A stretch of DNA of 64,000 nucleotides, from NCBI RefSeq assembly GCF_017348835.2, contig NZ_CP071375.1. The stretch is one strand, 5' to 3'. Source of the stretch: Escherichia coli. Lineage in GTDB: Bacteria; Pseudomonadota; Gammaproteobacteria; Enterobacterales; Enterobacteriaceae. The translations under genes were made by a program, and so were the position numbers. Positions 37,077 through 38,591 of this stretch are shown here, piece after piece (position 1 is the first letter of the stretch; every line of letters starts with the position of its first letter). The notes beneath the pieces are model-generated. The model was not told the origin of the DNA. It worked only from the letters and a program-made list of their open reading frames with translations, and did no database searches.

Positions 37077-38591
37077 ATGACAATTTCAAATTCGAATTTC
37101 TTGAAACCGTTTATTACTGGTACTGAGTTGCCACCTTTTAAAGAGGATGTCTTTTCTAAAACAGAAGAACAATTTAAAAAAAGCACCCATGGCAAATCGC
37201 TTTTCATTTCCCAAAATGAAAACTTAGTAAACATTTCAGCGGAAAAAATCGATGAAATAAAAAATAGCAAAAATTTCTTTTCAAACATTGTAAATATAAT
37301 AATTTTGCTCATTAAGCATCCTGATAAAATTCTGCCCATTCTTCATGGTTGTCCTGCAGAGTCCATCGAACTCATTAAGAATGCGAAACGAACGGGGCAA
37401 TGGTCATATGAGATGACTGATAAGAACGGGCAGAGTATTGAAGTGTCCTATATTTTCACTGATACCATAGATGATAATTATGATGGAAAATTATGCTTAA
37501 AAATCTGTAACTCCTGCAACCAAAATGATTCTAGTACACATGAATATAAGATAGATCATCAACAGTTGAAAAATCACATAAGGCAACTTGAGGAGTGGGC
37601 CCTTCTTGAAAAGTTTTATGATAACAACGCTTATTATTCTAAACGTACAAAACAATTAGAGAAGAAAATTGCCGATGCGGGGTTTATAGCAGGGAAGGTT
37701 AATGCCGATAACTTTAATGTAAACAAGTTTAAAGACGATATAGCCTCGATGCTTTGTGAACAGCCCCCCATGCGTACACACCAGATTTCTTCATCCGGAT
37801 ACTTATCTGCCGATAAAGTGCCCGATCTCTATAAGACAAATTTGAAAGACGCGCAGAGAGATCTGAAAACAACACCGGTTGACATCGATGGTGTTAGTCT
37901 AAAATCAAAAACTCGGGAAAAAATTGCGGAAAAAATTGCGGAAACAATTGCGAAAAAAACGCGAAAGAAATTGCGGAAACAATTGCGAAAAAAACGCGAA
38001 AAAAACGCGAAAAAAATTGCTGAAACAATTGTGGAAAAAAATGCGAAGAGCAGTGAGGAGAAGAATATTGAAAAAAACAAGAAAGAAACAAATCCTGAGG
38101 ATAATTTTGTCTTAAAATTCTCAGAGGAAGAAATCAATGAGATGCTCCTGGATTACAGCGATGAAGAACAAAACAAATTAAGACGTCTTTTCACTAGTGA
38201 TCACATGTATTGTTTGTTTGATGCTTTTAGTCAGGGTTTGCATAATGTTGCTCGTAATGGCAGTCCACGGTATATAGATTTATGCAGTAGTACCGCAACC
38301 AAACTTCAGGGATTACAAGATATTGAACAACAATTGTTCTGGCGCACGTTTACAGGAGGGGTCCTCCATCGACATATCTCTGTGAACAGCGGGCCAGAAA
38401 AGACAGATGTATGGCGATTCAGTACACAATTTGATTTTCCACATATAAATGAAAACGGAGAGTTGTCCAGAACGGTACTCATGTTCGAGGGGGTTGCTGA
38501 AAGCAACTTTAAAGATATCGCTAATCATTCCAGCGAATGTTTTTCTTACCGTTGTTATGCCGCCCCGCTGGATGCGAATGCTAAAAAATAG
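37077..38591 (+). CDS. Hypothetical 504-aa protein in an AT-rich islet; Lys/Glu-rich tandem tetrapeptide repeats; C-terminal Cys-protease-like motif
   Basis: Long ORF with strongly AT-biased codons; no signal peptide; internal 12-bp tandem repeat encoding KIAE(K/T)IAKKTRKK...; motif SDHMYCLFDAFSQGL with downstream His residues; stop only 20 bp from the convergent acpH stop. Confidence 0.75.
   Translation: MTISNSNFLKPFITGTELPPFKEDVFSKTEEQFKKSTHGKSLFISQNENLVNISAEKIDEIKNSKNFFSNIVNIIILLIKHPDKILPILHGCPAESIELIKNAKRTGQWSYEMTDKNGQSIEVSYIFTDTIDDNYDGKLCLKICNSCNQNDSSTHEYKIDHQQLKNHIRQLEEWALLEKFYDNNAYYSKRTKQLEKKIADAGFIAGKVNADNFNVNKFKDDIASMLCEQPPMRTHQISSSGYLSADKVPDLYKTNLKDAQRDLKTTPVDIDGVSLKSKTREKIAEKIAETIAKKTRKKLRKQLRKKREKNAKKIAETIVEKNAKSSEEKNIEKNKKETNPEDNFVLKFSEEEINEMLLDYSDEEQNKLRRLFTSDHMYCLFDAFSQGLHNVARNGSPRYIDLCSSTATKLQGLQDIEQQLFWRTFTGGVLHRHISVNSGPEKTDVWRFSTQFDFPHINENGELSRTVLMFEGVAESNFKDIANHSSECFSYRCYAAPLDANAKK
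37919..38049 (+). repeat. Imperfect 12-bp tandem repeat (about 11 units) inside the 504-aa ORF
   Basis: GAAAAAATTGCG / GAAACAATTGCG / AAAAAAACGCG units repeated head to tail, period a multiple of 3. Confidence 0.85.

What the first reader, a model, noticed from the sequence alone, without database searches (positions are those of the whole stretch)
37919..38049. In-frame 12-bp tandem repeat array inside the 504-aa orphan gene
About 11 head-to-tail imperfect copies of a 12-bp unit (GAAA[A/C]AATTGCG and AAAAAAACGCG variants) encode KIAE(K/T)IAKKTRKKLRKQLRKKREKNAKKIAE... Because the period is a multiple of three, slipped-strand gain or loss of units would change protein length without a frameshift, which is a possible source of length polymorphism or antigenic variation; the encoded segment is a highly charged, probably helical linker.
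Basis: seen in the sequence. Interest (0 to 1): 0.5.

Follow-up and report, generated by a model that had tools for sequence, protein, structure and literature searches.

The report
Variable 12-bp repeat in orphan gene
A real 12-base tandem repeat, present in 2 to 11 copies in different E. coli strains, encodes a charged helical spacer inside an Escherichia-only protein of unknown function; it is an ordinary coding minisatellite, except that this strain's copy carries three one-base losses that cancel each other out.

Summary
The array is real. It spans window 37917-38045 and has 11 head-to-tail units, eight of 12 bp and three of 11 bp (129 bp, 43 codons). It lies inside a 504-aa low-GC ORF (37077-38591) between malZ and acpH.

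The gene occurs in 1127 of 5426 complete E. coli genomes, always at this locus and always as 'hypothetical protein'. It has no detectable relative outside Escherichia/Shigella and no family or fold match.

Homologues form a ladder of 469, 473 ... 505 aa (2-11 units of [E/K]-x-[I/T/N]-A), and every length difference maps to the array. Alleles with 7 and 11 units share flanks with 0 SNPs, so the array changes faster than point mutation. Inside O157:H7 it is fixed at 5 degenerate units.

The three 11-bp units are A8-to-A7 losses that put codons 295-307 out of register (TRKKLRKQLRKKR instead of NAKEIAETIAKKNA) and then restore the frame. Sister alleles show +3, -1/+1 and uncompensated (pseudogene) combinations.

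AlphaFold2 models the array as one long helix. There is no signal peptide and no evidence of antigenic variation.

Verdict: a new member of a known kind, closest to the tolA intragenic repeat. Interest is modest.

The parts
36891..38607 (.). Low-GC (33-42%) accessory segment between the stop of malZ and the stop of acpH. It is absent from K-12, where the two genes lie 4 bp apart.
   Evidence: Composition profile. K-12 annotation and junction sequence.
37066..37069 (+). GGAG Shine-Dalgarno sequence, 7 nt upstream of the ATG.
   Evidence: Read from the sequence.
37077..38591 (+). 504-aa orphan ORF, annotated 'hypothetical protein' in all records. It is found only in Escherichia/Shigella. Layout: N-terminal part about aa 1-280, repeat spacer aa 281-323, C-terminal part about aa 345-504.
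   Evidence: No hit in Pfam, NCBIfam, PADLOC, PHROGs or PDB.
37917..38045 (+). The tandem array: 11 units (8 x 12 bp, 3 x 11 bp) encoding [E/K]-x-[I/T/N]-A tetrapeptides (aa 281-323). It contains a 34-bp exact direct repeat at offset 35, which marks a 3-unit higher-order repeat.
37953..37963 (+). 11-bp unit 4 (AAAAAAACGCG). Its A7 run is A8 in sister alleles. This is the first -1 shift.
   Evidence: Canonical A8 (KKNA) is seen in L013, L014, L016-L022 and P0126.
37959..37997 (+). 13 codons (T295-R307, TRKKLRKQLRKKR) read out of register with the ancestral repeat. The in-frame sister allele P0126 has 14 residues, NAKEIAETIAKKNA, at this position. The array's net charge rises from +5 to +11.
37988..38009 (+). 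11-bp units 7 and 8 (AAAAAAACGCG twice). These give the second and third -1 shifts and restore the original frame.
38010..38016 (+). A7 run of unit 9. It is A8 in strains PE164 and F2_81 and in the +3 allele (L016-L018).
38071..38077 (+). A7 run 25 nt downstream of the array. It is expanded to A8 in two independent O145:H28 genomes, where the gene is annotated as frameshifted.

Best explanation
The array is an in-frame coding minisatellite (VNTR). Imperfect 12-bp units, often moving as 36-bp triplets, are gained and lost by replication slippage or unequal recombination between units. Each unit adds or removes four residues of an [E/K]-x-[I/T/N]-A repeat. This repeat forms a charged alpha-helical spacer between the N- and C-terminal parts of a fast-evolving protein found only in Escherichia. 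Spacer length is weakly constrained, so alleles with 2 to 11 units coexist in the species. Turnover is fastest where units are still near-identical, as in this window's clade, and has stalled where they have degenerated, as in O157:H7. A second process sits on top of the first. The A7-A9 runs inside the units slip by +/-1 nt. The array has no stop codon in the gene's own frame or in one of the two shifted frames. The other shifted frame meets a TGA inside unit 9 (38020-38022). A shifted reading frame can therefore run for several units and be rescued by further slips inside the array, or by duplication of a slipped unit. This window carries such a rescued allele: three A8-to-A7 losses, a net -3 nt. 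Shown here: the array itself, the 4-aa ladder, localisation of all indels to the array, fast turnover relative to SNPs, and compensated and uncompensated A-run variants in independent assemblies. Inferred: the molecular mechanism of unit change (by analogy with tolA), the helical-spacer role, and selection for restoring the frame.
For: Array anatomy and significance. The gene is in 1127 of 5426 complete E. coli genomes at the same locus. In an evenly spaced sample of 60 of these genomes, gene lengths were 1446 (26), 1458 (20), 1470 (8), 1494, 1422 and 1386, plus frameshifted and partial copies. Proteins run from 469 to 505 aa in 4-aa steps. All indels among 12 aligned alleles fall in the array. 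Three-unit (36-bp) duplications are seen in L023 and in P0127 versus P0124. Within the window's clade, arrays of 5, 6, 7, 10 and 11 units occur on the same or nearly the same flanking protein. The 7-unit loci L020-22 and the 11-unit loci L016-18 differ by 0 SNPs in 1340 nt of flank. The window and strain PE164 differ over 7.5 kb by 2 SNPs and 2 A-run indels, and both indels are in the array. The longest exact internal repeat is 34 bp in the window and 55 bp in L023, but only 10 bp in the stable O157 array. The exact 504-aa product is recorded under four GenBank accessions on six contigs. The mirror-image +3 allele (A-run lengths 8,9,9,8) is found in three independent assemblies from ENA and Logan. 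The main frame and the mod3=1 frame are stop-free across the array; the mod3=2 frame stops in unit 9. A helix is predicted for residues 277-322. The spacer is dispensable in allele L010. Precedent: the E. coli tolA 15-mer repeat lies in a long alpha-helical domain, has 8-16 copies among 234 isolates, and contracts at 6.9e-5 in a RecA-dependent way (PMC3477136).
Against: No experiment or read-level data show slippage in this gene, and mutation rates are not measured. The helix prediction comes from a low-confidence model (mean pLDDT 41), and AlphaFold2 tends to draw helices for charged low-complexity sequence. dN/dS across the gene is about 0.6-1.5, so the protein itself may be under little selection. 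In that case 'spacer' has no functional meaning. Protein databases list mostly intact ORFs, so the apparent excess of frame-restoring A-run combinations may be partly ascertainment bias.
Confidence: 0.78

Rival explanations
1. The array is an adaptive contingency locus. Changes in unit number, and +/-1 slips in the A runs, are selected because they switch or retune a host- or phage-exposed protein. This would be phase or antigenic variation.
For: The array turns over faster than flanking SNPs. Frameshifted copies in PE164, ET201 and O145:H28 all arise at A runs in or next to the array. Several compensated alleles exist. dN/dS is near 1 and the gene is low-GC and accessory, as in conflict genes.
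Against: The unit is a multiple of 3, so unit changes cannot switch expression. A7-A9 runs are short compared with classical contingency tracts. There is no signal peptide or surface feature. The array is invariant in every O157:H7 genome sampled. Only about 4 of roughly 95 sampled genomes are frameshifted. No within-strain heterogeneity could be examined.
Confidence: 0.1
2. The three 11-bp units are homopolymer under-calls (A8 read as A7) in the assembly the window comes from. The true allele would be the clean 11-unit, 505-aa form (P0126), and the RKKLRKQLRKKR stretch would not exist.
For: All three differences from the clean allele are single-A losses in A8 runs. The two closest complete genomes differ from the window only at such runs. 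The 504-aa product comes only from NCBI submissions and was not found in the independent re-assemblies indexed for gene look-up.
Against: The identical 504-aa protein carries four separate GenBank accessions on six contigs. Other A-run combinations are reproduced in independent pipelines: three assemblies for the 8,9,9,8 allele and five contigs for the 8,7,8,8 allele. Random errors would restore the frame only one time in three.
Confidence: 0.12
3. The ORF is not a functional gene. The array would then be a non-coding AT-rich minisatellite in a decaying island, and the 'protein repeat' would be incidental.
For: dN/dS is about 1. There is no homologue outside the genus among 1.84 billion representatives. 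There is no domain or confident fold. There is no promoter-like site upstream. The gene has been lost, truncated, hit by IS1 or frameshifted in some strains.
Against: A roughly 1.45-1.5 kb ORF in DNA of about 37% GC stays open in more than 1100 genomes despite 5-8% divergence. With the 112 substitutions that separate two alleles placed at random, only 2% of simulated genes stay stop-free. A good Shine-Dalgarno sequence sits 7 nt from the ATG. Slipped arrays are repeatedly found restored to frame.
Confidence: 0.07
4. The array works at the DNA level. Phased A-tracts every 11-12 bp would make curved DNA that nucleates H-NS-type silencing of the island.
For: There are A6-A8 tracts at 11-12 bp spacing over 130 bp in an AT-rich island.
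Against: The 12-bp phasing drifts out of register with the helical repeat. Strains with 2-3 units, or with none (L010), keep the gene. Unit changes preserve the reading frame rather than any helical phase. No binding data exist.
Confidence: 0.03

Closest known systems
Intragenic tandem repeat of E. coli tolA (15-mer units in the alpha-helical domain II)
   Same: Both are in-frame, imperfect short-unit repeats inside an E. coli gene, and both encode a Lys/Ala/Glu-rich long helix that connects two domains. Copy number varies among natural isolates (8-16 in 234 isolates for tolA; PMC3477136). Both change on short time scales.
   Different: tolA is a core, functionally characterised envelope gene, its copy number has measured phenotypes, and its contraction is RecA-dependent. 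Here the gene is an accessory orphan, the unit is 12 bp, nothing has been measured, and the units carry A7-A9 runs that add frameshifting.
VNTR loci used for E. coli MLVA typing (GECM-7/GECM-10: CVN001-017, CCR001)
   Same: Tandem arrays whose copy number differs among strains. Some of these loci also lie in accessory DNA that many isolates lack (PMC5217547).
   Different: Published unit sizes are 39, 18, 15, 15, 18, 6, 6, 59, 6 and 6 bp (PMC8143711). None is 12 bp. None of the 20 primers matches anywhere in the window with up to 3 mismatches. This locus is therefore not one of them.
Simple-sequence contingency loci (homopolymer or 2-7-nt repeats that switch genes on and off in Neisseria, Haemophilus, Campylobacter)
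   Same: Slippage-prone A runs inside a coding region produce frameshifted (off) and restored (on) alleles among close relatives.
   Different: The runs are only 7-9 nt and lie mid-gene inside a stop-poor repeat, so slips can be compensated rather than simply reverted. The main 12-bp unit cannot switch the frame. No high-frequency switching has been shown.
Length-variable repeat spacers of Gram-positive surface proteins (spa Xr 24-bp repeats, Clf/Sdr SD repeats); from my own knowledge
   Same: An in-frame repeat encodes a spacer whose length varies among strains.
   Different: Those proteins have signal peptides and wall anchors, and their spacers project a ligand-binding domain from the surface. 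This protein shows neither feature.

Membership tests
Coding VNTR / intragenic minisatellite | Head-to-tail copies of a unit of about 10-100 bp, more than chance would give | tested here: met
   TRF finds period 12 with 11.1 copies. Lag-12 self-match is 0.69, against 0.447 +/- 0.021 in shuffles, with 0 of 10,000 reaching it.
Coding VNTR / intragenic minisatellite | Copy number polymorphic among strains, with indels confined to the array and equal to whole units | tested here: met
   2-11 units are seen. Proteins run 469-505 aa in 4-aa steps and genes 1422-1518 nt in 12-nt steps. All indels fall in the array.
Coding VNTR / intragenic minisatellite | Array lies inside a translated ORF and preserves the frame | tested here: inconclusive
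   The array is in frame in an ORF conserved open in more than 1100 genomes and preceded by a Shine-Dalgarno sequence. Translation itself is not shown, and dN/dS is about 1.
Phase-variable contingency locus | Repeat unit not a multiple of 3 (or a homopolymer), so that slippage switches the frame | tested here: inconclusive
   The 12-bp unit fails this test. The embedded A7-A9 runs pass it, and frameshifted alleles arise at them.
Phase-variable contingency locus | High-frequency, reversible switching within a clonal population | not testable with these tools
   No read-level data are available. Inside O157:H7 the array and frame are the same in every sampled genome.
Antigenically variable surface protein | Export signal, anchor or other evidence of surface exposure | tested here: not met
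   The N-terminus is hydrophilic (mean hydropathy -0.12). The best 19-residue window scores 1.56, just below the usual membrane-span threshold. There are no family hits.
Generic E. coli MLVA loci (GECM-10) | Matches a published locus by unit size and primers | tested here: not met
   No published unit is 12 bp. No primer matches in the 64-kb window.
tolA-type helical-spacer repeat | Repeat encodes part of a long alpha-helix linking two domains | tested here: inconclusive
   AlphaFold2 models a helix at 277-322 with pLDDT about 70, but the whole model is poor (mean 41). The linker is replaced in allele L010.
tolA-type helical-spacer repeat | RecA-dependent unit contraction at about 1e-5 to 1e-4 | not testable with these tools
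   This is known only for tolA (PMC3477136).

The most novel reading that the evidence does not exclude
The array is a two-mode mutational device in a fast-evolving protein involved in conflict with a host or a phage. Unit gain and loss would tune the length of a rigid spacer. +/-1 slips in the A runs would either silence the C-terminal domain or, when compensated within the stop-poor array, recode part of the spacer into an Arg/Lys-rich segment (here KKTRKKLRKQLRKKREK, net charge +11 instead of +5). That segment could change the protein's binding or targeting. Under this reading the recurrent compensated alleles (-3, +3, -1/+1) are selected variants rather than tolerated accidents.
Probability: 0.08. 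Interest if true: 0.55.

Novelty: new member of a known kind. Interest (0 to 1): 0.3.

Why it matters
As it stands, this is a clean and apparently undescribed example of a coding minisatellite in E. coli. It shows a full 2-11-unit allelic ladder in a gene carried by about a fifth of sequenced strains, including O157:H7 and ExPEC lineages. It could serve as a typing marker between lineages, though not within O157:H7. It also offers a natural series for asking how much spacer length matters in an orphan protein. The compensated-frameshift alleles illustrate a general point. A repeat that has no stop codon in alternative frames lets frameshifts be repaired at a distance, and so creates new peptide sequence from an old repeat. 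None of this touches a long-standing open question, and the protein's function remains unknown.

Tried and rejected
- **Protein identity.** Pfam, NCBIfam, PADLOC, PHROGs, and PDB by sequence and by profile gave only chance-level hits caused by the Lys/Glu-rich repeat. phmmer against 1.84 billion representatives found one full-length cluster plus fragments of the same gene and no distant relatives.
- **Structure.** AlphaFold2 on the full protein with a 23-allele alignment gave mean pLDDT 41. On the C-terminal 167 aa it gave 49. Both are too poor for a fold search, so none was run.
- **RNA.** Rfam over 36500-39300 gave only a sub-threshold SAM-II match (E = 0.39) inside the array. I rejected it as chance.
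- **Promoters.** No sigma-70-like site lies upstream of the ATG, so expression is unresolved.
- **Literature.** Searches for guessed locus tags, for malZ with acpH, and for the unit sequence found nothing on this gene. The tags were guesses from memory and may be wrong.
- **Exact-protein look-up.** The window's allele was not on record in the gene-position index.
- **Mobile-element origin.** I considered and rejected this. There are no plasmid copies and no repeats, tRNA or integrase at the junctions.
- **Failed script.** My first flank-SNP script mis-sliced the 5' flank. The flank comparisons I rely on are those.

Full report
**Context.** The window is E. coli chromosome. malZ (35073-36890, +) is followed by a 504-aa ORF (37077-38591, +), then acpH (38612-39193, -), queA and tgt (the gene names come from the matching RefSeq annotation). 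The ORF lies in a 1.7-kb segment of 33-42% GC, flanked by DNA of 50-57% GC. In K-12 this segment is missing, and malZ and acpH end 4 bp apart. A GGAG sits 7 nt before the ATG.

Tandem Repeats Finder gives 37916-38045 with period 12, 11.1 copies and 75% matches. The same array also appears with periods 35 and 46. Nothing else in the 64 kb scores above 51. Read by eye and parsed by script, the array is 37917-38045 with 11 units. Eight units are 12 bp and three are 11 bp (AAAAAAACGCG at 37953, 37988 and 37999), giving 129 bp or 43 codons, aa 281-323. Lag-12 self-identity is 0.69. The best lag of 10,000 shuffles averages 0.447 +/- 0.021 and none reaches the observed value.

**The gene.**
- megablast finds it in 1127 of 5426 complete E. 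coli genomes. It is always chromosomal, always between malZ and acpH, and always called 'hypothetical protein'. Carriers include O157:H7, O145:H28, pig ETEC, and blood and urine isolates.
- In a protein collection of 5.8 billion clusters, all named hits are E. coli, Shigella or Escherichia sp..
- phmmer against 1.84 billion representatives returns one full-length cluster plus fragments of the same gene.
- Pfam, NCBIfam, PADLOC, PHROGs and PDB give nothing beyond chance hits on the Lys/Glu-rich repeat.
- AlphaFold2 fails, with mean pLDDT 41 for the full length and 49 for the C-terminal part. I therefore ran no fold search.
- Pairwise dN/dS is about 0.6-1.5.
- The ORF nevertheless stays open across more than 1100 genomes. 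When the 112 substitutions that separate two alleles are placed at random, only 2% of simulated genes keep the frame open.
- I read it as a real, rapidly evolving gene restricted to this genus, with function unknown.

Repeat number differs among homologues.
- Proteins are 469, 473, 477, 481, 485, 489, 493, 497, 501 and 505 aa. That is a complete ladder of 2 to 11 tetrapeptide units of the form [E/K]-x-[I/T/N]-A.
- In 12 aligned alleles every length difference lies in the array.
- In an evenly spaced sample of 60 of the 1127 genomes, gene lengths are 1446 nt (26 genomes), 1458 (20), 1470 (8), and one each of 1494, 1422, 1386 (a different linker), 1517 and about 1471 (both frameshifted), plus one partial copy.
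- Changes occur in steps of one unit and of three units (36 bp): L023 duplicates EKIA-KKTE-EENA, and P0127 differs from P0124 by KKNA-KEIA-ETIA.
- The window's 11-unit array is at the top of the range. Only three other complete genomes have 10 or 11 units.

**Tempo.**
- In the window's own clade, arrays of 5, 6, 7, 10 and 11 units sit on identical or nearly identical flanking protein.
- The 7-unit loci L020-22 and the 11-unit loci L016-18 have 0 SNPs in 1340 nt of flanking gene sequence.
- The window and strain PE164 differ over 7.5 kb by two SNPs and two single-A indels, and both indels are inside the array.
- By contrast, every O157:H7 genome sampled has the same 5-unit array.
- This fits unit homogeneity. 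The longest exact internal repeat is 34 bp in the window and 55 bp in L023, but 10 bp in O157.

- In sister alleles the KKNA unit is AAAAAAAACGCG, with an A8 run (L013, L014, L016-22). The clean 11-unit protein P0126 reads EKIA EKIA ETIA KKNA KEIA ETIA KKNA KKNA KKIA ETIV EKNA.
- The window has A7 in all three KKNA units. The first loss shifts the frame, so codons 295-307 read TRKKLRKQLRKKR. The second and third losses bring the frame back at E308. The result is a 504-aa protein whose array has net charge +11 instead of +5.
- Writing the A-run lengths at units 4, 7, 8 and 9, the clade contains:

| Allele | A-run lengths | Net change |
|---|---|---|
| P0126 | 8,8,8,7 | in frame |
| Window | 7,7,7,7 | -3 |
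| L016-18 (one ENA metagenome and two Logan assemblies) | 8,9,9,8 | +3 |
| F2_81 and L019 | 8,7,8,8 | -1/+1 |
| PE164 (annotated frameshifted) | 7,8,7,8 | -1 |

- ET201 has two A7-to-A6 losses and is frameshifted.
- Two O145:H28 genomes share an A7-to-A8 gain 25 nt after the array.
- Across the array the gene's frame and one shifted frame carry no stop. The other shifted frame hits a TGA in unit 9. This explains why shifts can persist for several units and be repaired within the array.
- The window's exact protein is recorded under four GenBank accessions on six contigs. I therefore take the allele as real. Homopolymer under-calling remains a 0.12 rival, and only reads can exclude it.

**Structure of the encoded segment.** AlphaFold2 draws residues 277-322 as one helix at pLDDT about 70. 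This is one of only two fairly confident stretches of a poor model; the other is around residues 350-380. A natural allele (L010 and H111, 461 aa) keeps the N- and C-terminal parts nearly unchanged but replaces the centre (about aa 275-400) with divergent sequence that has no repeat. The segment therefore behaves as a replaceable linker. There is no Sec-type N-terminus, and the most hydrophobic 19-residue window (from residue 71) scores 1.56, just below the usual membrane-span threshold. Nothing supports surface exposure, so nothing supports antigenic variation.

**Comparison with what is known.**
- The closest precedent is the intragenic repeat of E. coli tolA. It has 15-mer units in a long alpha-helical linker domain, 8-16 copies among 234 isolates, and contraction at 6.9e-5 that depends on RecA (PMC3477136).
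- The locus is not one of the generic E. coli MLVA markers. Their units are 6-59 bp and none is 12 bp (PMC8143711), and none of their primers matches the window.
- It differs from classical contingency loci because the main unit cannot switch the frame and the A runs are short.
- I found no paper on this gene or repeat. The locus tags I searched were guesses from memory.

**Verdict.** The length-polymorphism reading is confirmed at the population level. The helical-linker reading is plausible. Antigenic variation is unsupported. This is a new member of a known kind, an in-frame coding minisatellite, with compensated A-run frameshifts as a modest curiosity. Interest is 0.3.

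Noticed in passing
window 54808-56379 (- strand): A 523-aa ORF with pentapeptide repeats. It has weak NCBIfam hits to the type III effectors PipB2 and PipB (E about 1e-6, far below the curated cut-offs). The small 12-bp TRF hits at 55797-55844 lie inside it.
   Followed up: partly
L010 301-1686 (E. coli JX21CE8); also hit H111: A 461-aa allele of the orphan gene. Its N- and C-terminal parts are nearly identical to other alleles, but the centre (about aa 275-400) is replaced by divergent sequence with no repeat. It looks like a recombinant mosaic.
   Followed up: partly
L011 1040-2780 (E. coli O55:H7 USDA5905): A deletion joins a 3'-truncated malZ to the last 336 nt of the orphan gene. 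Both are annotated as partial pseudogenes.
   Followed up: no
Hits H51 and H52 (E. coli WCHEC4533, WCHEC96200): An IS1 transposase is inserted inside the orphan gene, splitting it into two 'hypothetical protein' features.
   Followed up: no
L008 301-1771 and hit H108 (E. coli O145:H28); window equivalent 38071-38077: Two independent O145:H28 genomes share the same A7-to-A8 frameshift just downstream of the array. The pseudogene state is therefore inherited in that lineage and is not a sequencing accident.
   Followed up: partly
window 37829-38137 (-) and 37924-38115 (+): The repeat keeps several alternative frames open on both strands, producing spurious ORFs of 102, 65 and 63 aa that overlap the array. 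These are by-products of the stop-poor repeat, not genes.
   Followed up: yes
window 37990-38033 (+): A sub-threshold Rfam match to the SAM-II riboswitch (22 bits against a gathering score of 44, E = 0.39) lies inside the repeat. It is almost certainly chance from the A-rich repeat.
   Followed up: yes
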